Shown here one piece after another: positions 3,003-13,995 of a stretch of DNA of 64,000 nt; position 1 is the stretch's first letter, and every line of letters begins with the position of its first letter. The stretch spans positions 17,675-81,674 of the forward strand of contig CAZOHG010000004.1 of assembly GCA_964579725.1 (NCBI GenBank). The letters are read 5' to 3'. The translations under genes were made by a program, and so were the position numbers. Source of the stretch: an uncultured Deferribacteres bacterium. GTDB lineage: Bacteria; Zhuqueibacterota; JdFR-76; BMS3Abin05. A model generated the notes under the pieces. That model worked only from the letters and a program-made list of their open reading frames with translations. It did not search any database and was not told the DNA's origin.

Positions 3003-3352
3003 GGGGGCGCCCTGGGTTCGACGGGATTGGAAAGAGACAGGAACGGCATACCGTGGTCTCCGACCCCACGTAAAATAGCCGGAACACAAATGTAAATGCA
3101 GACTACAACTACGCTCTGGCTGCTTAATTAGCGGTCACGTTCCCCGAGCCGAGACCTGCATAGGCTCGGTGGAGCGTCGCAGCTGCAGGTGCTCCTGACA
3201 AATTTCCGGGATTGTCAGGCTAAGACCACCGGATAGACCTGTGTGAGGCTTTGTCTGTTGAGCCGCCACAGGCGACACTAATCAACAGACTATGTATGTA
3301 GAAGTTCTTGTCGGCTCTTTCCCGGACGCGGGTTCGATTCCCGCCGCCTCCA
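3003..3352 (+). ncRNA. ssrA: tmRNA (transfer-messenger RNA, SsrA)
   Basis: The 5' end GGGGGCGCCCUGGGUUCGACGGGA pairs with the 3' end GCCGCCUCC-A as a 7-bp acceptor stem including one G-U. The T-arm GGACGCGGGUUCGAUUCCCGCCGCC is tRNA-Ala-like. The internal tag-peptide reading frame ends ...ADYNYALAA-UAA. Total length is about 350 nt. Confidence 0.9.
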
Positions 3353-3362
3353 CTAAAAAGCC

Positions 3363-3732: not shown

Positions 3733-6700
3733 TTGGAAAACATGTTACTGGACAGTCGCTATTTTGTGGAGAAGAAGATAGGTGAAGGGGGCGACGGACA
3801 GGTTTTCAAGGTGTTGGATCGGGTGACGGGAGAAATCAGGGCGTTGAAATTGCTTAACCCGGACAGAATTGCGCCGGACGATCTGACCTTTTTTGAGCGA
3901 GAATTTCTGAACGTCAAGAAGCTAACCCACCCCAATATCGTTAAAGTCTATGATTTCGGCTTTCAAAAGGGCAATTACCCCTATTTTACCATGGATTTCG
4001 TCGACGGTCCTGCGTTCACTGATTTCTTTTCCAGGCCGTTTGACCCCACGGCTTTTGTAAAACTGACCGCTGAAATTTGCCTCGCTTTGGACTATTTACA
4101 CAGCCACAACCTGATTCACAGAGATATTAAACCGGCCAATATTTTATTAAGCCAGGAAAACGCCTCGCAGCTACCGGTGCCGGTGCTGACCGATTTCGGA
4201 TTAGCCGAGGATTTTGCGCTTTCCGAATTCGATCCACGGGGCGGCAGCCATTTTTACGTTTCTCCCGAAGCTATTCGGGGCTGGAAAATCGACCCACGCG
4301 CCGACCTGTACTCCCTGGGTGTGACCCTCTACGAAGCTCTGACCGGCCAAAAACCCTTCACGGCAGATAATCCCATTGACGTGCTCAAGCAGCATTTGCA
4401 CAGGGTTCCGGAAAATCCCTCCGCTTTACGGGAGGATCTGCCCCCGGAAGTGGATCAACTGCTCCTGAAATTGTTGGAAAAAGATCCGTCCGCACGGTAC
4501 AATTCCGCACTTGAAGTGCTTCACGACGTCATTCGGCTGGCCCCCGCGGATGTGCCAGTCCCCAAGCTGCACGCCTCAACCCGCATTTGGGGTGGAGCCT
4601 TTGTGGGACGCAAAAAGGAATTGAAATACCTCCGAGATATTTTCGACACGACACGCAGCTTGCAGCGGTTTTCCTTTGCGGTCATTTCAGGTGAAAAGGG
4701 TGTCGGGAAAACGCGGCTCGTACGGGAATATTCCACCCAACTTCAACTGGAGGGTGTCAAGGTTTTCTTTGTGGAAAGCGCCTCCACACGTCACGTCCCC
4801 TACGGGCTCATCTTGGAAATCATTCGGCAAATCGGCATTTCCGCACCCGGTGGAGTGGAATTGACCGGCGACGAGCAGACTGTTTGGCGAACCATTTTTC
4901 AGCACGGTGGCACGCAGCAATCGCCCGACATTTTTAAAGACCAGGCCCAGGTATTTGACATCCTGGGGCGGCTCCTGCAAAAATTTGTACGAGCTATTCA
5001 AAATGCCGACCCCAAACAAAAAACGCCCTTACCGCTTCTCGTTATTTTGGATGATTTTCAAGAAGCGCCTTCCGTAATTCACCAATTTTTCCGCTACTTA
5101 TTTTTCAATGTTTGGAATACCAATCTCCTCTTTTTAGCCACCGCTTCCGGCGACCTTTCGAACCTGGAACAGATTTACGAGACCGTTCGTTCGGAGAAAT
5201 ATTTCTATTGGAACGTCTTGCAGTCCTTTGATTACGGCGGATTCCGGCAATTTCTGTCCAAAAAATTCGCCGACTTCCAGAACTTTGACGACTTGGCAAA
5301 CGATTTGTACCAGTACACGGCCGGGAATCCCTTGTACACGGAACATCTGCTCCAATATTTTGTGGATCGAAATTTAATTGCCTGGGAAGATAACCACTGG
5401 ACGTGGAAAGGGCTGCGCGGAGGGGTCGATTTGCCCGGGGCTATTTCCGACCTTTTTCGAGACCGCTGGAAAGAGTTCTCACACGCTGCCCGCGACGTTC
5501 TGAAAGCACTTGTTTTTCAAGGAGATGTTGTTCCTCTTGCTTTTCTCAAAGCCTATTTTGAAGGGAGCCACACCGACTGGCAGGCGGGTCTGGAAGAATT
5601 GTTGCGGGAAGGTCTTGTTTCAAAAATTCTTCGGAACGGCGCTGTAGTGCTTCAGATTTCCCAACAAAGTTGGGGGGATTTTGTCCTTTCGACCACCCAT
5701 TCGGTAGAAAAAAGAAAAATCCACGAGCACTGGCTTTACGTCATTGAAGATTTGCACCTCGAAATCCCGAAAGACTATCTGGCACCCCTGGCGTACCACG
5801 CTTTAGAAAGCCACCACTGGGAGAAGGCACTTCACTATTTACCCCAAGCAGCCGAATACGCGCAGGCGTTGTTCGATTTGGATCACGCCATTGAATTTTA
5901 CGAAAAATTTCTCTCTCTTTCCAAAAACACGCCTCTCTCCGATCGCCTACCTTTCCTGGAAAAATTGGCTGCGGCGTACGAGTACAGCGGCCAGTTGGCC
6001 AAAGCCCTGGAGGTATCGGATTCTGTTCTTCAAGAAATAGGCGAAAGCGACGCGGAAAAATCGGTTGCTTGGAATTGGCGGTATCGAAAGGTGGAACTCC
6101 TCCAAAAATCGGGAGAGATTCAGGCGGCACTGGATCTTTTGGAGGGACAGCGCTCGGAATGGGAATCCCTTTCCCCGGAACAAAGCGCCCGTGGTTTTTA
6201 CGAATTGGGCTGGCTGTACCGTCTTTCAGGAAAATTTGAGGAGGCATTTGCCCAATATGCCCGGGCAGTGGACTTGTTTTCTCAAATCGAGGCCCAAAAT
6301 GACGTGGCGCTTACTTACAATCGAATGGGAGTAACACACCTTGTTCAGGGAAATTTGGAGGAAGCGGAAGAGGCGTTGCAACGGGCGCTGAGTATTTTTG
6401 AGGAATCCTCTCACTTGCGAGGGTTGGCACATGTTCACAACAATTTGGGCATTTTGTACCGCCAGAAGGGCGAATTAAATCTGGCTCAAAAGCACTACGA
6501 AAATTGCTTGAAAATTCGCCGCGCCACAAAAGACATTACCTATTTGCCTCAGGTATTGAACAATCTGGCCAACTTGCAGTTTTACCACAGCGAGTGGGAA
6601 AAGGCGCTCAATTCCTACAAAGAAGTCCTGCGGATTGCCCAGGGACTGGGTCTTGCGGAAACAACAGCCGGTGTGTTGGAAAATATCGGGCGGTTACAAT

Positions 6701-8952
6701 TTCATCTCGGCCAAGTGGAAGCCGCTCACGAAGCGGCTAAAAAGGCGGTTTTGCTCAATCGCCGCCTTGAAAATTACGAAGGGCTGGCCACTGTTTTTGA
6801 ACTTTTGGGCGATATTCACGATTTGCACGAAAATTACCGCCTGTCACAGGGATTTTATTTCCGGGGGTTGCGAATTTTGGAAAAAACCCAAAACCAACCG
6901 GCTCAAATTCCTTTGCAGTACAAATTGGGCCGTCACTTTTTGCGATTGGGAGAAAAACAAAAAGCGCTGGATTTTTTCATTCGGGCCGAAGACTTAAGCC
7001 AAATTCACCGGCTAAGGGAAGAACGCGCCGAAGTGGCGCTTCAGATCTTGCGTTGGGCGTTGCGCTACCACGACCACCAGCGGGCGGAATATTATCGCAA
7101 TTTTCTGGAAAATAATCTTCCCGCTCTGAAAAATCCCCTGCAGCTCGGATTGGCTTACAGGCAATTGGGACACGCGCGGCAAAAAAACGACGAACCAGCC
7201 CGAGCGCTTGAGAATTTCGAAAAGGCTCTGGAAATTTTTGAGAAAATTTCGGCTTCTGTTGAAATTGCACGTACCGAAAGCGCTCTGGGTAGCTTTTTCT
7301 TAGCCGCCGAAGAACACGAACAAGCCCATTTACATCTGAAAAAAGCTGTCCAACTTTTTCAGAAACTTCCGGCTCGCAACGAACGTCTCCGAATTACCCA
7401 GCAATTTCTGACCGTCCAGGAGCAATTAATTTCCAAATTGGGACAAAATCAGGGTGTTTCCGGCCAATTGACGGTTCTGCAACAAACCAGCCTCATTGTC
7501 CATTCCATTTTCGATCTGGAAACCATGCTTCACAACATTATGAACACGGTCATTAATTTGCTCAAAGCCGACAAAGCGGCCATTATTTTTCTGAATAAGC
7601 AGAGTGGCGGTCTGGAAGTAAAGGTGAGCCGGGGAATGGAGGAAGCAACCATTGAAGACGCCATTCGCATCAGCCAATCGATTATTCAGCGGGTGGAAAA
7701 AACAGGCAGTTCGGTTCTGTCGCGAAATACGCTGGGAGACGAGCGCTTTCAGCACAGCAAAAGCGTCCGCAATTTCCAGATTTTCTCCCTCATGTGTGTC
7801 CCGCTTAAAGTAGATGACCGCCTAATCGGAACCGTTTACGTGGACAGCCGCAATCCGGAACGAATCTTCGGCTACCGCGATTTGGAATTTTTGGAAAATA
7901 TTGCCGATCTGGCCGCTGTGGCGATTAGCAATTCCGAATATTACGAAGAATTGAAACGAAAGCAAAAGAATTCGGAGCTTGAGGCTCATCTGCCACAACC
8001 TGAGGAAAATCGCCTGACATTCAACGAAATGGTGGGGACGAGTCAGCCAATGCGCGAGATTTTCAATATTGTGAAACGCGTCCTAAATAAAAATGTGGAT
8101 ATTTTGATTCGCGGCGAAAGCGGAACGGGAAAAGAAAAATTGGCTGCCTTGATTCACTTTAACAGTAATCGAAAAGAGCGTCCCTTTGTAACGGTCAATT
8201 GTGCTGCCATCCCCCCTACCCTGCTCGAGAGTGAACTTTTCGGTATTGAAAAGCGCGTGGCAACCGGCGTGGATCGACACATCGGGAAATTTGAACAGGC
8301 AAACGGCGGCACTATTTTTCTGGATGAGATCGGAGACATGAGTTTGGAAACGCAGGCGAAAATACTCCGGGTCATTCAGGAGCGCGAGTTCCAGCGAATC
8401 GGTGGTTCCAAAATCATTCGAATTGACGTTCGGATTATTGCCGCGACAAACAAAAATTTGGAAGAAGCCATCCGGGAACGCACATTTCGACAGGATTTGT
8501 ATTACCGTCTAAACGTGCTGCCCATTGTCGTCCCACCTCTTCGAGACCGGAAGGAAGACATTCCCCTTTTGGTTGAATATTTTATTCGCAAGTACAATTC
8601 GGGGCAATTGGTAAAGATTACCGATTCAGCCATGCGCTTACTGTACCGGTACGATTGGCCGGGGAACGTCCGCGAACTGGAAAATGCCGTTCAACGAATG
8701 CTCATTTTTACGGAAGGGGATCGCATTACGGTTAGCGCACTGCCGCCTGAAATTCAACAATTTATGCCTCACGGAGTTCCTGCCGATGCTTTGGGGAGGT
8801 TGTCCCTTCGGGATTTTGAGCGAGAGCTTCTGTTGAAAAGTTTGGAAAGAAATCACTGGAATATTTCCAGGACGGCCCAGGCGCTGGGGGTGCACCGAAA
8901 CACCTTGCACCGAAAAATGAAGCTTTTTCAGATTTCCAAACCGGGTGTCTAA
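3733..8952 (+). CDS. multidomain signalling protein: Ser/Thr protein kinase + AAA_16 ATPase/TPR module + GAF + sigma-54-interaction AAA+ domain + Fis-type HTH
   Basis: Kinase motifs are present: GEGGDGQV, ALK, HRDIKPANILL, DFGLA and SPE. A Walker A GEKGVGKT (AAA_16, PknK/MalT-like) follows, then about 500 aa of TPR-like repeats and a GAF-like region. The enhancer-binding AAA+ core (GESGTGKE, ...GGTIFLDEIGDM..., VRIIAATN) and a C-terminal HTH (ISRTAQALGVHRNTLHRKM) complete the protein. An RBS-like GGAAAGGA lies upstream. Confidence 0.85.
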   Translation: MENMLLDSRYFVEKKIGEGGDGQVFKVLDRVTGEIRALKLLNPDRIAPDDLTFFEREFLNVKKLTHPNIVKVYDFGFQKGNYPYFTMDFVDGPAFTDFFSRPFDPTAFVKLTAEICLALDYLHSHNLIHRDIKPANILLSQENASQLPVPVLTDFGLAEDFALSEFDPRGGSHFYVSPEAIRGWKIDPRADLYSLGVTLYEALTGQKPFTADNPIDVLKQHLHRVPENPSALREDLPPEVDQLLLKLLEKDPSARYNSALEVLHDVIRLAPADVPVPKLHASTRIWGGAFVGRKKELKYLRDIFDTTRSLQRFSFAVISGEKGVGKTRLVREYSTQLQLEGVKVFFVESASTRHVPYGLILEIIRQIGISAPGGVELTGDEQTVWRTIFQHGGTQQSPDIFKDQAQVFDILGRLLQKFVRAIQNADPKQKTPLPLLVILDDFQEAPSVIHQFFRYLFFNVWNTNLLFLATASGDLSNLEQIYETVRSEKYFYWNVLQSFDYGGFRQFLSKKFADFQNFDDLANDLYQYTAGNPLYTEHLLQYFVDRNLIAWEDNHWTWKGLRGGVDLPGAISDLFRDRWKEFSHAARDVLKALVFQGDVVPLAFLKAYFEGSHTDWQAGLEELLREGLVSKILRNGAVVLQISQQSWGDFVLSTTHSVEKRKIHEHWLYVIEDLHLEIPKDYLAPLAYHALESHHWEKALHYLPQAAEYAQALFDLDHAIEFYEKFLSLSKNTPLSDRLPFLEKLAAAYEYSGQLAKALEVSDSVLQEIGESDAEKSVAWNWRYRKVELLQKSGEIQAALDLLEGQRSEWESLSPEQSARGFYELGWLYRLSGKFEEAFAQYARAVDLFSQIEAQNDVALTYNRMGVTHLVQGNLEEAEEALQRALSIFEESSHLRGLAHVHNNLGILYRQKGELNLAQKHYENCLKIRRATKDITYLPQVLNNLANLQFYHSEWEKALNSYKEVLRIAQGLGLAETTAGVLENIGRLQFHLGQVEAAHEAAKKAVLLNRRLENYEGLATVFELLGDIHDLHENYRLSQGFYFRGLRILEKTQNQPAQIPLQYKLGRHFLRLGEKQKALDFFIRAEDLSQIHRLREERAEVALQILRWALRYHDHQRAEYYRNFLENNLPALKNPLQLGLAYRQLGHARQKNDEPARALENFEKALEIFEKISASVEIARTESALGSFFLAAEEHEQAHLHLKKAVQLFQKLPARNERLRITQQFLTVQEQLISKLGQNQGVSGQLTVLQQTSLIVHSIFDLETMLHNIMNTVINLLKADKAAIIFLNKQSGGLEVKVSRGMEEATIEDAIRISQSIIQRVEKTGSSVLSRNTLGDERFQHSKSVRNFQIFSLMCVPLKVDDRLIGTVYVDSRNPERIFGYRDLEFLENIADLAAVAISNSEYYEELKRKQKNSELEAHLPQPEENRLTFNEMVGTSQPMREIFNIVKRVLNKNVDILIRGESGTGKEKLAALIHFNSNRKERPFVTVNCAAIPPTLLESELFGIEKRVATGVDRHIGKFEQANGGTIFLDEIGDMSLETQAKILRVIQEREFQRIGGSKIIRIDVRIIAATNKNLEEAIRERTFRQDLYYRLNVLPIVVPPLRDRKEDIPLLVEYFIRKYNSGQLVKITDSAMRLLYRYDWPGNVRELENAVQRMLIFTEGDRITVSALPPEIQQFMPHGVPADALGRLSLRDFERELLLKSLERNHWNISRTAQALGVHRNTLHRKMKLFQISKPGV

Positions 8953-9082
8953 CCAACTTTGAGTACCATTGGAACTGGCTGGCATCGGAAGAGGAGTAAA
9001 AATGGGGGTGGCCACCTCAATCGGCACCCTCACGCGGAAACCGGCCTCAAAGAGCTTACCTCAAAATGAAAAGGCTGACACA

Positions 9083-9102
9083 GTGCACCATTTCTCGTGC
9101 AT
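9083..9102. promoter_or_regulatory. palindromic site 1 (GTGCAC-N8-GTGCAT), candidate activator-binding upstream site
   Basis: TGCAC-catttctc-GTGCA is an inverted repeat lying about 200 bp upstream of the -12 element. Confidence 0.3.
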
Positions 9103-9150
9103 CTGTTTACCCCATTAATAACAATAGGACAAACTCGTACCTCCCCCTCT

Positions 9151-9171
9151 AATGCACTATTTTGGTGCATT
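9151..9171. promoter_or_regulatory. palindromic site 2 (AATGCAC-N7-GTGCATT), candidate activator-binding upstream site
   Basis: This is a perfect 7-bp inverted repeat with a 7-nt spacer. It lies about 130 bp upstream of the sigma-54-like promoter. The half-site TGCAC is shared with site 1, which is about 68 bp away. Confidence 0.35.
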
Positions 9172-9280
9172 GTCACTTTATTTTCACAATTTCCTTTTGA
9201 AAAACAGTTACACTTATTTTAGTATCTGATTAATTTTTAAAGAATTAGTCCCTGCCATTCCTTTCGACATTGAACATCAA

Positions 9281-9296
9281 TGGTATTATTTTTGCA
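9281..9296 (+). promoter_or_regulatory. sigma-54 (RpoN)-type promoter candidate, -24/-12 elements
   Basis: TGGTATTATTTTTGCA matches TGGCAC-N5-TTGCA. The conserved GG and GC dinucleotides have the correct 10-nt spacing. It sits about 45 nt upstream of the repeat-protein start codon. Confidence 0.45.
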
Positions 9297-9340
9297 AATT
9301 AAAAGTTGTTATTAATCATTAACTTGGGAGGATGGTGAAC

Positions 9341-9703
9341 ATGCGCTCTTTGATCAAAGTAGCGGTGGCGGCCATATTAGTAGCCCTACTGATCGGAACC
9401 GTTCAGTCAGGTACCTACGCCAGTGGCCCCAGAGACATCCCCGTGGGTGGTATTATGAGCGGCCCAAGGGACATTCCAGTCGGCGGCATTATGAGTGGTC
9501 CGCGCGACATCCCGGTGGGCGGCGTTTGGAGTGGCCCTCGTGACATCCCTGTCGGTGGGATCGCCAGCGGACCCCGTGACATTCCGGTGGGCGGAATTGC
9601 CAGTGGTCCCCGCGATATTCCGGTCGGTGGCATCATGAGTGGTCCCAGAGACATCCCCGTGGGTGGTATTGCCAGCGGCCCGAGGGATATTCCGGTCGGC
9701 TAA
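9341..9703 (+). CDS. Sec-secreted small protein consisting of a signal peptide followed by 7.75 tandem 12-aa repeats (SGPRDIPVGGI[M/A/W])
   Basis: An RBS GGGAGG lies 9 nt before the ATG at 9341. The signal peptide is MRSLIKVAVAAILVALLIGTVQSGTYA. The mature part is made only of repeats and ends with a truncated repeat, SGPRDIPVG-stop. Confidence 0.75.
   Translation: MRSLIKVAVAAILVALLIGTVQSGTYASGPRDIPVGGIMSGPRDIPVGGIMSGPRDIPVGGVWSGPRDIPVGGIASGPRDIPVGGIASGPRDIPVGGIMSGPRDIPVGGIASGPRDIPVG
9422..9700 (+). repeat. 36-nt coding tandem repeat array (7 full copies + 27-nt partial)
   Basis: The copies are identical at the amino-acid level but differ at roughly 25% of nucleotides. Almost all differences are at synonymous third positions (Pro ccc/cca/ccg/cct; Arg aga/agg/cgc/cgt). 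Confidence 0.85.
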
Positions 9704-9834
9704 ACGAAGTCGACATTTATTTTCCCTCAGGCAGATTTTCATTCGTTTGCATGCAACGGATGTCATGAAGCTTTTGGCTGAGGGGGTTGAGACTGTATCT
9801 CAATCCCCTTTTTTATTTTTTAGGAAACAATGCG

Positions 9835-10191
9835 ATGCCAGGCAATCCGTACAAAATAAATTCCAGATCGGAATACATTTCAAAAAGAATGTCCACGAGT
9901 CTCTCCGTTATTGCCTATGTGCCCAAAAATAATCACGGGGATGTGCGGCAACTGATTATGGATATTTTTCGCCGACTTTCCCTCGAGCCCAGATACGCTG
10001 GGACCGTTTCTTTCGGATTCTTGGAAATTCCCTGCAACGAATGTGATTCCGACCCGCTGATTGACCAAATTGACCCGCAAGATTTGCCCAAAATTGTAAT
10101 TTACCGATCCGGGGGAAGTTCCGTTTTTGAGATTGAAAACATCGAGTTCCAGAAAATTAAAGTAGCAATTGACTTGGCTCTCGAGCAGTAA
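9835..10191 (+). CDS. hypothetical small protein, thioredoxin-fold-like without CxxC
   Basis: The ORF is 9787..10191, with a likely ATG at 9835 after AGGA. The beta-alpha-beta-alpha pattern (VIAYVPKNNHGDVRQLIMDIF...DPLIDQIDPQDLPKIVIYRSGGSSVFEI) parallels the thioredoxin/KaiB-like fold. KNNH sits where CGPC would be. Confidence 0.35.
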   Translation: MPGNPYKINSRSEYISKRMSTSLSVIAYVPKNNHGDVRQLIMDIFRRLSLEPRYAGTVSFGFLEIPCNECDSDPLIDQIDPQDLPKIVIYRSGGSSVFEIENIEFQKIKVAIDLALEQ

Positions 10192-10219: not shown

Positions 10220-10579
10220 ATGAAGTGGTGGGAGATTTACAGCGAACGGCAATACGTCCAATTGCGAACATTCCATCGACCCAAGATTTTTATTTGGTAT
10301 TCCGGACGACTTCCCGACCGCCTTCAAAATGAACTAAGGGTCATTTTTGAAAACGTGGAATACGAATATCGGGAAATCGCCAATTTTATTGTCTCCTTGG
10401 TTCATGTCGATCGGGACCCTGAATTGCAGCAGCTTTTTGGCTTTTTAAATCCAACACCGAAGGGACTTTTTTTGACGGGGTATTCGTCCCAAGGAACCAC
10501 ACTCTTTAAATGCAACGAGCTTTCGCCCAGTCAATTGAAAATGTACATCCTCCGTCTGCTTGCGTCTTCACAAAACTAA
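10220..10579 (+). CDS. hypothetical small protein, thioredoxin-fold-like without CxxC (paralog-like of the upstream ORF)
   Basis: The ORF is 10169..10579, with a likely ATG at 10220. KIFIWYSGRLPDRLQNELRVIFENVEYEY...DPELQQLFGF...KGLFLTGY aligns with the thioredoxin pattern ILVDFWAEWCGPCK...NPGTAPKYGI...PTLLLF. SGRL replaces CGPC. Confidence 0.35.
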   Translation: MKWWEIYSERQYVQLRTFHRPKIFIWYSGRLPDRLQNELRVIFENVEYEYREIANFIVSLVHVDRDPELQQLFGFLNPTPKGLFLTGYSSQGTTLFKCNELSPSQLKMYILRLLASSQN

Positions 10580-13839: not shown

Positions 13840-13995
13840 TACCCTACCTCCTTACACAATCATTGCTTTATTTTCAGCCAGCGTCGTTCACTTGAGCGGA
13901 AAATTGTCCAAATAATGGTCAAAATCATTGGATTGAATAGAAGAAGCAAGTTCCATACCAATTTGGTTCTGAGTAGGCGTGACATCCGGAGGAAA

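What the first reader, a model, noticed from the sequence alone, without database searches (positions are those of the whole stretch)
9079..9300. Sigma-54-type promoter plus two palindromic upstream sites in front of the repeat-protein gene, directly downstream of a sigma-54-activator-domain gene
TGGTATTATTTTTGCA (9281-9296) has the GG and GC elements at the exact -24/-12 spacing. At about 130 and 200 bp upstream lie two related dyads, AATGCAC-N7-GTGCATT and GTGCAC-N8-GTGCAT. Their centres are about 68 bp apart. This is the classic geometry of bacterial enhancer sites for an AAA+ activator, and the adjacent upstream gene (3733..8952) carries exactly such an AAA+/HTH module. That suggests a self-contained cis-regulatory unit: a kinase-activator fusion driving the secreted repeat peptide.
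Basis: partly seen in the sequence, partly recalled or inferred. Interest (0 to 1): 0.65.

Follow-up and report, generated by a model that had tools for sequence, protein, structure and literature searches.

The report
Sigma-54 enhancer promoter for repeat peptide
This stretch is most likely a real sigma-54 promoter with NtrC-type enhancer sites, through which a giant kinase-fused activator next door switches on a small secreted repeat-peptide gene; the design is ordinary, but the activator lacks the motif usually thought essential for contacting sigma-54.

Summary
TGGTATTATTTTTGCA (9281-9296) has GG-N10-GC spacing. TGCAC-N8-GTGCA (9084-9101) and TGCAC-N7-GTGCA (9153-9169) are the only such dyads in 64 kb (expected 0.18).

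Four independent orthologous loci (activator 58% identical) keep the -24/-12 element. They keep dyad centres at about -145 and -213.5, plus a third at -280.5 that the window lacks, while the DNA between them diverges.

Five much more distant relatives of the activator (25-32% identity) also have a sigma-54 motif 42-77 nt upstream of a small signal-peptide gene directly downstream. Per-locus chance is 0.001-0.006. One of nine loci read lacks the arrangement.

The proximal dyad is a near-perfect enteric NtrC box. The activator's recognition helix (RNTLHRK) matches that of NtrC (RNTLTRK).

Caveats:
- The activator carries RVATGV in place of GAFTGA. This variant subfamily was noted before (D. vulgaris DVUA0100).
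- A sigma-70-like -35/-10 overlaps the promoter in the AT-rich clade only.
- rpoN could not be checked.

This is a new variant of a known kind, of moderate interest.

The parts
3742..8952 (+). Gene for a 1736-aa activator (a TTG at 3733 is an alternative start). Domains: Ser/Thr kinase, STAND AAA_16, TPR (MalT/PknK-like), GAF, sigma-54 AAA+ domain with RVATGV in place of GAFTGA, Fis-type HTH.
   Evidence: Pfam domains. Translation. An identical 1736-aa protein, P0001. Kinase catalytic residues, Walker A and ATGV are invariant in the clade alignment. HTH recognition helix RNTLHRK against E. coli NtrC RNTLTRK.
9084..9101 (.). Distal enhancer dyad TGCAC-N8-GTGCA. Centre 9092.5, about -213.5 from the inferred start site.
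   Evidence: Aligned to a TGCAC-N8-GTGCA (GGGCA in L005) at the same distance in L001, L002, L004 and L005.
9153..9169 (.). Proximal enhancer dyad TGCACTATTTTGGTGCA (extended palindrome 9151-9171). Centre 9161, about -145. It is a 17-bp NtrC box.
   Evidence: It matches 13 of 14 specified positions of TGCACCAnnnTGGTGCA (PMC8743547). It is close to E. coli glnAp2 site II, aGCACTATATTGGTGCA. The half-sites are invariant in all orthologues.
9172..9280 (.). AT-rich (70%) spacer with A/T tracts between the enhancer and the promoter. It is the presumed looping segment. No IHF-consensus site.
   Evidence: The sequence diverges between orthologues while its length is kept to within 1-2 bp.
9281..9296 (+). 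Sigma-54 type -24/-12 promoter TGGTATTATTTTTGCA. The inferred start site is about 9306-9307.
   Evidence: Invariant TGG and TTGCA in orthologues. Equivalent motifs in distant loci. The start site is inferred, not mapped.
9264..9292 (+). Overlapping sigma-70-like TCGACA-N17-TATTTT (9/12). Possibly a secondary or basal promoter.
   Evidence: It is stronger in the orthologues (10-11 of 12) and absent from all five distant loci.
9326..9332 (+). Ribosome-binding site GGGAGGA, 8 nt before ATG 9341.
   Evidence: Invariant ACTTGGGAGGA in the orthologues.
9341..9703 (+). Target gene: a Sec-type signal peptide (MRSLIKVAVAAILVALLIGTVQSGTYA) followed by 7.6 tandem units of SGPRDIPVGGI[A/M].
   Evidence: There are 142 synonymous against 21 non-synonymous codon differences between units, all of the latter at positions 11-12. 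Orthologues carry 3 or more units of Q/SGP(R/V)DIPVGGI(A/M).
9780..9820 (+). Intrinsic terminator (13-bp stem, -20.5 kcal/mol, T run). It makes the peptide gene monocistronic.
   Evidence: The hairpin is conserved in L001, L002 and L005.

Best explanation
The interval 9084-9296 is an enhancer-dependent sigma-54 promoter that drives the monocistronic secreted repeat-peptide gene 9341-9703.

Proposed mechanism:
1. RNA polymerase with sigma-54 sits as a closed complex on TGGTAT-N5-TTGCA.
2. Dimers of the neighbouring 1736-aa protein bind the two NtrC-box dyads at about -145 and -213 through a Fis/NtrC-type HTH.
3. A signal is integrated by the protein's GAF, TPR/STAND and kinase modules. The AAA+ domains then assemble into a ring.
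4. The 70% AT spacer loops, and ATP hydrolysis opens the promoter.
5. Transcription starts near 9306 and ends at the hairpin at 9780-9820.

Shown here: the motifs, their statistical rarity, their conservation in sequence and exact spacing, the synteny, the domain content, and the similarity of the HTH and its site to NtrC.

Inferred: binding of this protein to the dyads, sigma-54 dependence, the start site, that the RVATGV loop still engages sigma-54, and the nature of the signal.
For: - Motifs and coordinates.
- The dyads are unique in 64 kb.
- In five loci (window, L001, L002, L004, L005; activator 58% identical; L002 is from the same MAG as L003/L006), the block AATGGTAYTATWWTTGCA and the dyad half-sites are invariant. 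The dyad centres stay at -132 to -134 and -200.5 to -202.5 from the -12 G, while the intervening DNA diverges.
- In eight of nine clade loci whose DNA could be read, a match of at least 9/11 to TGGCAC-N5-TTGCW lies 42-77 nt before the start of a small signal-peptide gene just downstream of the activator gene. Per-locus shuffle P is 0.0007-0.006.
- The five distant loci have no sigma-70-like element there.
- The proximal dyad equals the NtrC box consensus (PMC8743547) and nearly equals glnAp2 site II. The recognition helix is RNTLHRK against RNTLTRK.
- Distant clade members have a different HTH consensus and different dyads (CCGACG-N4-CGTCGG, TTCGTCA-N4-TGACGAA), at a similar -140 to -150 distance from the -12 G.
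- The AAA+ domain is otherwise intact (Walker A and B).
- Published precedent: the GVATGV-type D. vulgaris DVUA0100 is predicted to act at sigma-54 promoters (PMC4641369).
Against: - The L1 loop reads RVATGV, not GAFTGA. The central Phe, reported as essential for sigma-54 activation, is Ala (literature summarised in PMC3162934). Proteins with defective motifs (TyrR, DhaR, HupR, VpsR) act at sigma-70 promoters.
- No rpoN gene is present in the 64 kb or in any fetched clade locus, and the rest of the genome could not be searched.
- A -35/-10-like pair with a 17-nt spacer overlaps the promoter and is conserved in the three AT-rich lineages.
- In the window alone the promoter match is only 9/11, with both consensus C positions changed to T.
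- One clade locus (L008) lacks the arrangement.
- There is no experimental datum of any kind.
Confidence: 0.72

Rival explanations
1. The working promoter is the overlapping sigma-70-type TCGACA-N17-TATTTT. The neighbouring protein, lacking GAFTGA, acts on sigma-70 polymerase as TyrR, DhaR, HupR or VpsR do, or the sigma-70 promoter gives basal expression alongside sigma-54.
For: - RVATGV replaces GAFTGA.
- The literature treats such proteins as sigma-70 dependent (PMC3162934; PMC6158489, listed).
- The -35/-10-like pair scores 9/12 in the window, 10/12 in L001 and L004, and 11/12 in L005, always with a 17-nt spacer.
- The tRNA-Met promoter in the window uses the same kind of elements, TTGACT-N17-TATTTT.
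Against: - The five distant loci keep the GG-N10-GC element and have no sigma-70-like pair.
- TGG (in the sigma-70 spacer) and GCA (after the -10) are invariant, which sigma-70 recognition does not explain.
- Activator sites at -145 and beyond are far from where sigma-70 activators usually act.
- 9/12 matches are at background frequency in this AT-rich DNA: 4 found, 2.7 expected.
Confidence: 0.13
2. The promoter is sigma-54 dependent, but the dyads are bound by another NtrC-type regulator of the organism (for example the nitrogen regulator). The adjacency to the kinase-activator gene is then incidental.
For: The dyads are generic NtrC boxes. The adjacent protein's L1 loop is non-canonical.
Against: - The recognition helix of the adjacent protein is NtrC-like.
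- In the orthologues the first dyad starts 1-3 nt after its stop codon.
- Gene, sites and promoter travel together across the clade, and the dyad sequence changes where the HTH changes.
- No other such dyad exists in 64 kb.
Confidence: 0.08
3. The dyads act as RNA hairpins: terminators or stabilisers of the upstream activator mRNA, not protein-binding sites.
For: Each folds at -10.3 kcal/mol (z -3.3 and -4.7). The proximal one is followed by a T-rich stretch and was picked up by the terminator scan.
Against: - The half-site sequence itself, not just the pairing, is invariant at two or three sites in five loci, while the loops vary.
- It equals a known protein-binding consensus.
- Spacing to the promoter is fixed to 1-2 bp.
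- The stems are short and weak compared with the real terminator at 9780 (-20.5 kcal/mol).
- A dual role for the proximal dyad is not excluded.
Confidence: 0.05
4. Chance resemblance in AT-rich intergenic DNA.
For: TGG-N8-TTGCW alone is not enriched in the window. The strict pattern occurs twice where 0.33 is expected, and 6 of 100 shuffles reach 2.
Against: Conservation and positional constancy across independent loci. The dyad count is 2 against 0.18 expected.
Confidence: 0.02

Closest known systems
E. coli glnAp2 with NtrC enhancer sites I and II
   Same: - A sigma-54 -24/-12 promoter with 17-bp TGCACC-N5-GGTGCA dyads more than 100 bp upstream.
- The window's proximal dyad differs from site II by two bases.
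- The recognition helix is nearly the same.
   Different: - The sites are 67-68.5 bp apart (about 6.5 helical turns), not about 32 bp.
- The activator is not a response regulator but a 1736-aa kinase/STAND/TPR/GAF fusion.
- Its L1 loop is RVATGV.
- The target is a secreted repeat peptide, not nitrogen metabolism.
- NCBIfam ntrC and nifA equivalog cut-offs are not reached.
NorR at norVW (GAF-AAA+-HTH activator that needs three enhancer sites; PMC2831303, abstract seen)
   Same: A GAF-regulated single-component activator. The orthologues here carry three dyads, which fits three dimers making one hexamer.
   Different: - The window itself has only two good sites.
- The site sequence and the wide, regular 67-68.5 bp spacing differ.
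- There are large extra N-terminal modules.
Desulfovibrio vulgaris DVUA0100 (GVATGV-type activator; PMC4641369)
   Same: The same substitution pattern in the GAFTGA loop (xVATGV). The gene is co-located with predicted sigma-54 promoters, and the published inference is that the variant still activates sigma-54.
   Different: - Different N-terminal region and different targets (type III secretion).
- That case is also computational only.
- Here the association is seen in at least six further lineages.
TyrR, DhaR, HupR, VpsR (activator homologues with defective GAFTGA that act at sigma-70 promoters)
   Same: The canonical GAFTGA sequence is lost.
   Different: Here the loop is kept, one residue shorter after the motif, with a clade-invariant ATGV. 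The neighbouring promoter has conserved -24/-12 elements.
PknK / MalT-type STAND regulators
   Same: The N-terminal two thirds (Pkinase, AAA_16, TPR_MalT) have this architecture. One relative is labelled PknK by its source.
   Different: The output module is a NifA-like GAF-AAA+-HTH, not a LuxR-type HTH.
RRNPPA pheromone propeptides with several copies of the mature peptide (PMC9765709)
   Same: A small exported precursor with tandem copies of one short peptide, encoded next to a cytoplasmic TPR-containing regulator.
   Different: - Different phylum, regulator family and promoter type.
- No evidence here for processing, import or binding.
- This is an analogy only.

Membership tests
Sigma-54 (RpoN) dependent -24/-12 promoter | GG and GC doublets exactly 10 nt apart | tested here: met
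   GG 9282-9283, GC 9294-9295.
Sigma-54 (RpoN) dependent -24/-12 promoter | Similarity to the extended consensus TGGCAC-N5-TTGCW | tested here: met
   9 of 11 specified positions; both mismatches are C to T. One of only two exact TGGYAY-N5-TTGCW matches in 64 kb.
Sigma-54 (RpoN) dependent -24/-12 promoter | Correct orientation and distance to a gene start | tested here: met
   The motif ends 44 nt before ATG 9341.
Sigma-54 (RpoN) dependent -24/-12 promoter | Conservation of the two elements in related loci | tested here: met
   Invariant in four orthologous loci. An equivalent motif is present in five distant loci.
Sigma-54 (RpoN) dependent -24/-12 promoter | The genome encodes sigma-54 | not testable with these tools
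   No RpoN box in the window or in clade loci. The source genome was not in the genome collection. One distant clade locus (L009) carries a canonical GAFTGA response-regulator activator.
Sigma-54 (RpoN) dependent -24/-12 promoter | Start site 11-13 nt after the GC, and dependence on rpoN and an activator | not testable with these tools
   Needs 5'-end mapping and genetics.
Bacterial enhancer-binding protein (NtrC/NifA family) | Sigma-54 interaction AAA+ domain with Walker A and B | tested here: met
   PF00158 E 1.6e-66 and AAA_lid_14. GESGTGKE and FLDEIGDM. 40% identity to E. coli NtrC over 331 residues.
Bacterial enhancer-binding protein (NtrC/NifA family) | GAFTGA motif in loop L1 | tested here: not met
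   The loop reads RVATGV. ATGV is invariant in the 18-member clade alignment. About 35 of the 150 best representatives carry xxATGV.
Bacterial enhancer-binding protein (NtrC/NifA family) | C-terminal Fis-type HTH | tested here: met
   PF02954 E 6.3e-14, residues 1691-1730.
Bacterial enhancer-binding protein (NtrC/NifA family) | Membership of a named equivalog (NifA, NorR, NtrC and others) | tested here: not met
   The best is NifA at 409.9 bits against a cut-off of 528.85. All others are also below their cut-offs.
NtrC-box enhancer | 17-bp dyad TGCACCAnnnTGGTGCA | tested here: met
   The proximal site TGCACTATTTTGGTGCA matches 13 of 14 specified positions. The distal site is an 18-bp version with one extra spacer base.
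NtrC-box enhancer | Two or more sites 100-300 bp upstream of the -24/-12 element | tested here: met
   Centres at about -145 and -213.5. The orthologues add a site at -280.5.
NtrC-box enhancer | Bound by the cognate activator | not testable with these tools
   Only inferred, from the recognition helix RNTLHRK against NtrC RNTLTRK and from synteny.
Sigma-70 -35/-10 promoter | TTGACA-N16-18-TATAAT-like pair conserved in relatives | tested here: inconclusive
   9/12 in the window and 10-11/12 in the orthologues with N17. None in the five distant loci. This score is at background frequency in the region.
Peptide-pheromone circuit (RRNPPA-like) | An exported propeptide processed to a short peptide that is re-imported and bound by the TPR domain of the adjacent regulator | not tested
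   Only the precursor-like layout (signal peptide plus identical 12-mers) and a TPR region in the regulator are seen.

The most novel reading that the evidence does not exclude
The gene pair is a sigma-54-based peptide autoinduction loop outside the Firmicutes. The exported precursor would be cut into up to eight copies of a 12-residue peptide (SGPRDIPVGGIA/M). That peptide would be sensed, directly or through the kinase, by the TPR/STAND sensor of the neighbouring activator, which would then switch on the precursor gene through the NtrC-box enhancer. As a corollary, the widespread xxATGV loop would be a second, Phe-less way for AAA+ activators to engage sigma-54.
Probability: 0.1. Interest if true: 0.8.

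Novelty: new variant of a known kind. Interest (0 to 1): 0.45.

Why it matters
The cis-regulatory design (a -24/-12 promoter plus upstream dyads for a neighbouring AAA+ activator) is textbook. As a promoter call, this is a solid but ordinary annotation in an uncultured FCB-type bacterium.

Three things lift it above routine.

1. The activator belongs to a large subfamily whose sigma-54-contacting loop reads xxATGV instead of GAFTGA. Genome surveys discard such proteins as not sigma-54 dependent (PMC3162934, PMC12316311). Here eight of nine loci from at least six lineages pair them with conserved sigma-54 promoters. This extends the single earlier computational hint (DVUA0100) and gives compact, directly testable constructs.

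2. The enhancer has an unusual, rigidly conserved geometry: sites every 67-68.5 bp, with N7 and N8 spacers kept site by site.

3. The only evident target is a tiny secreted protein made of identical 12-residue units under strong purifying selection. It has one homologue among 5.8 billion proteins, and its function is unknown.

Tried and rejected
- A first pattern search used the wrong spacer (N9) and was redone.
- The metagenome scan with the clade alignment was swamped by generic activators (patterns FLDEIGDM and WPGNVREL). It added no xxATGV locus.
- The genome-collection scan did not contain the source genome. It gave three usable orthologous loci (L004, L005, L006), one of them already held, plus one weak partial match (L007).
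- The rpoN search by RpoN-box regex was negative in the window and in clade loci. The whole genome could not be reached.
- The locus of P0019 had gene calls but no DNA.
- The GAFTGA-type relative P0025 has a different downstream context (a peptidase), so the peptide arrangement is not general to all kinase-fused activators.
- Rfam found nothing in 8900-10000.
- No IHF-consensus site lies between the enhancer and the promoter.
- Pfam and NCBIfam found nothing for the peptide or for the two 118-aa genes.
- The homologue search found 1 hit for the peptide and 4 for the 118-aa protein, all unannotated.
- AlphaFold2 on the peptide, run without an alignment, gave mean pLDDT 61. That is too low to decide between a solenoid fold and a cleavable precursor.
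- A Bacteroidetes-type sigma-A promoter (TTTG / TAnnTTTG) was considered. It was set aside because the tRNA-Met promoter in the window is a classical TTGACT-N17-TATTTT.
- The paper on the GAFTGA phenylalanine (PMC2764435) is not held. Its conclusion is cited only through PMC3162934.
Full report
**1. Observation**

- TGGTATTATTTTTGCA lies at 9281-9296. GG is at 9282-9283 and GC at 9294-9295, which is the TGG-N8-TTGCA register of sigma-54 promoters.
- AATGCAC-N7-GTGCATT lies at 9151-9171 and GTGCAC-N8-GTGCAT at 9083-9102.
- The cores are TGCAC-N7-GTGCA (9153-9169) and TGCAC-N8-GTGCA (9084-9101). Their centres are 68.5 bp apart.

Statistics:
- These are the only TGCAC-N6-9-GTGCA dyads in the 64 kb on either strand. 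Expected 0.18; none of 100 shuffles reaches two.
- The promoter match alone is weaker evidence. TGG-N8-TTGCW is not enriched (4 against 5.85 expected).
- The stricter TGGYAY-N5-TTGCW occurs twice against 0.33 expected, and 6 of 100 shuffles reach two.
- Within the 388-bp intergenic region, a match of at least 9/11 placed 30-90 nt before the start codon arises in about 0.2% of shuffles.

**2. The flanking genes**

The upstream ORF (TTG 3733, more likely ATG 3742, to 8952) encodes a 1736-aa protein. Its domains are Pkinase, AAA_16 (STAND), TPR/TPR_MalT, GAF, Sigma54_activat (E 1.6e-66), AAA_lid_14 and HTH_8. In short, a PknK/MalT-like sensor is fused to a NifA-like output. No NCBIfam equivalog cut-off is reached; the best is NifA at 410 bits against 529.

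The downstream gene most likely starts at ATG 9341, 8 nt after GGGAGGA. It encodes a Sec-type signal peptide and 7.6 tandem units of SGPRDIPVGGI[A/M].
- Among the seven full units there are 142 synonymous and only 21 non-synonymous codon differences. All the non-synonymous ones fall at positions 11-12.
- All four Pro codons and four different Arg codons are used.
- The repeat is therefore translated, and each unit is under strong purifying selection.

A 13-bp hairpin with a T run (-20.5 kcal/mol) follows at 9780-9820, so the gene is monocistronic. Rfam finds nothing in 8900-10000.

**3. Orthologous loci**

The activator has an identical copy in public data, and full-length relatives at 58% identity. 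Their contigs were fetched:
- L001;
- L002, L003 and L006, which come from one MAG;
- L004;
- L005, from 'bacterium BMS3Bbin03'.

Source labels range from 'Bacteroidetes bacterium' to 'uncultured Deferribacteres'. A protein in the window with a T9SS sorting domain fits an FCB-type lineage.

All loci show the same order:
1. activator stop codon;
2. dyads;
3. AT-rich spacer;
4. -24/-12 motif;
5. RBS;
6. signal peptide plus Q/SGP(R/V)DIPVGGI(A/M) repeats;
7. the same hairpin;
8. two unannotated genes of about 118 aa.

In the alignment of the intergenic regions (mean identity 70%), the invariant blocks are the dyad half-sites, AATGGTAYTATWWTTGCA and the RBS.

The geometry is fixed.
- The proximal dyad (always N7) is centred 132-134 bp from the G of the -12 GC.
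- The next dyad (always N8) is centred 200.5-202.5 bp from it.
- A third dyad (N8) is centred 267.5-269.5 bp from it. This third site starts 1-3 nt after the stop codon.
- The spacings are 68.5 and 67 bp.

The window lacks the third site; only a degenerate left half remains near 9017-9034.

**4. Distant relatives**

The full-length hits split by their L1 loop: GAFTGA or GSFTGA in most, and [KR][VTA]ATGV in the window's clade. ATGV is invariant in an 18-member alignment, which also keeps the kinase catalytic residues and Walker A.

For clade members at 25-32% identity, the contexts again show a 340-410 bp gap and then a 67-79 aa gene with a signal peptide. In each locus that has DNA, a sigma-54 motif ends 42-77 nt before that gene:

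| Locus | Motif |
|---|---|
| L009 | CGGCACTCTCCTTGCA |
| L010 | AGGCACGCTCCTTGCA |
| L091 | TGGAACGCTTGTTGCC |
| L092 | GGGCACGGCCCTTGCC |
| L093 | AGGCATGTCCTTTGCT |

Per-locus shuffle probabilities are 0.0007-0.006, against a background of 0.10 hits per kb per strand. These intergenic regions cannot be aligned with the window's and range from AT-rich to GC-rich, so the motif has been kept independently.

They carry other dyads at a similar distance from the -12 G:
- CCGACG-N4-CGTCGG at -151.5 and -253.5 in L092;
- TTCGTCA-N4-TGACGAA at -140.5 in L010.

This fits their different HTH consensus.

One clade locus (L008) lacks the arrangement; trkH follows after 69 bp. A GAFTGA-type relative (P0025) also has a different context.

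**5. Who binds the dyads**

The published NtrC consensus is TGCACCAnnnTGGTGCA (PMC8743547).
- The window's proximal dyad TGCACTATTTTGGTGCA matches 13 of 14 specified positions.
- It differs by two bases from E. coli glnAp2 site II, aGCACTATATTGGTGCA, read directly from MG1655.
- The C-terminal 350 residues are 40% identical to E. coli NtrC. The recognition helix reads GVHRNTLHRKMK against GWGRNTLTRKLK.

Together with the tight linkage of gene and sites, this makes the adjacent protein the most likely binder. That step is an inference.

**6. The GAFTGA problem**

The loop reads EKRVATGVD where NtrC has EKGAFTGAN, with one residue fewer after the motif.
- The literature treats GAFTGA, and especially its Phe and Thr, as essential. 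It filters out deviants as sigma-70-dependent, citing TyrR, DhaR, HupR and VpsR (PMC3162934; PMC12316311).
- The variant is not rare, however. About 35 of the 150 best representatives at 50% identity carry G[VT]ATGV, KVATGV and similar. Their lengths run from 380 to 1742 aa.
- It has been noticed once before. D. vulgaris DVUA0100 (GVATGV) sits in sigma-54-dependent type III secretion operons, and the authors inferred that it still activates them (PMC4641369).

The present loci add independent comparative support for that view. They do not prove it.

**7. Rivals**

- *Sigma-70 overlap.* A sigma-70-like TCGACA-N17-TATTTT overlaps the motif. It is stronger in the orthologues (TGTACA or TCGACA-N17-TATAAT, 10-11 of 12) but absent from all five distant loci. 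Scores of 9/12 are at background level in this DNA. It may give basal expression. It cannot explain the invariant TGG and GCA.
- *RNA hairpins.* The dyads fold as RNA at -10.3 kcal/mol each. The proximal one could also help to terminate the activator transcript. The invariant half-site sequence with variable loops, and its identity to a protein-binding consensus, argue for protein binding.
- *Another NtrC-type regulator* using the sites cannot be excluded.
- *Looping aid.* No IHF-type site lies in the 70% AT spacer.

**8. Limits**

- No rpoN gene is in the window or in the clade loci, and the genome could not be searched further.
- A canonical GAFTGA response-regulator activator in L009 shows that at least one clade genome encodes a canonical sigma-54-type activator.
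- The peptide has a single homologue in 5.8 billion proteins.
- Its AlphaFold2 model is of low confidence (pLDDT 61), so its function is open.
- Propeptides with several copies of a pheromone next to TPR regulators are known in RRNPPA systems (PMC9765709). That is only an analogy here.

**9. Verdict**

This is an enhancer-dependent sigma-54 promoter with NtrC-box sites, serving a secreted repeat-peptide gene, most likely under the adjacent kinase/STAND/GAF activator.

- It works like glnAp2-NtrC or norV-NorR.
- It is not a canonical member of the activator family, because the GAFTGA feature was tested and not met.
- It is best filed as a new variant of a known kind.
- Interest is moderate. The value lies in the Phe-less L1-loop subfamily paired with sigma-54 promoters, the rigid 67-68.5 bp enhancer geometry, and the unknown repeat peptide.

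Noticed in passing
window 13945-13960 (- strand): This is the second and only other exact TGGYAY-N5-TTGCW match in the window (TGGTATGGAACTTGCT). It lies about 105 nt upstream of ATG 13839 of a 999-aa secreted protein with a T9SS sorting domain, just after tRNA-Met and its terminator. No TGCAC dyads are nearby, so it would need another activator.
   Followed up: partly
window 9341-9703: The 12-residue units are identical in protein at positions 1-10, but synonymous sites are saturated (142 synonymous against 21 non-synonymous codon differences). In L001 and L002 the units are nearly identical in DNA. The scaffold in L002 has an N gap inside the array, and the gene was not called in L002 or L003. 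Such genes are therefore easily lost in assembly and annotation.
   Followed up: partly
window 9835-10191 and 10220-10579: Two lineage-restricted genes of about 118 aa follow the peptide terminator and are syntenic in all orthologous loci. They have no Pfam or NCBIfam match, and the first has only four homologues.
   Followed up: partly
L009 10760-11503; L010 10606-11361; also L091 and L093: In distant clade loci the small peptide gene is followed by an AAA+ protein of about 250 aa. It is related to the sigma-54 interaction domain but has no L1 loop motif and no HTH. Often a WYL/HTH_11 gene comes next. This is absent from the window.
   Followed up: partly
window 9268-9282: A perfect palindrome CATTGA-ACA-TCAATG abuts and overlaps the -24 TGG. 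The orthologues keep only CATT-N7-AATG. It could be an operator or part of the -35-like element.
   Followed up: no
window 3003-3353: A tmRNA gene (tag VNADYNYALAA) lies directly upstream of the activator gene.
   Followed up: no
proteins P0152-P0299 (not in the window): The xxATGV loop variant occurs in many activator architectures, including proteins of about 450 aa that are the size of response regulators. It is therefore a broad subfamily that GAFTGA-based surveys would miss.
   Followed up: partly
L008 14107-14122: In the one clade locus without an adjacent promoter, a sigma-54 motif TGGCATAGTATTTGCC sits about 56 nt before the start of an 84-aa gene (14179). That gene lies next to another activator gene about 4 kb downstream.
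   Followed up: no
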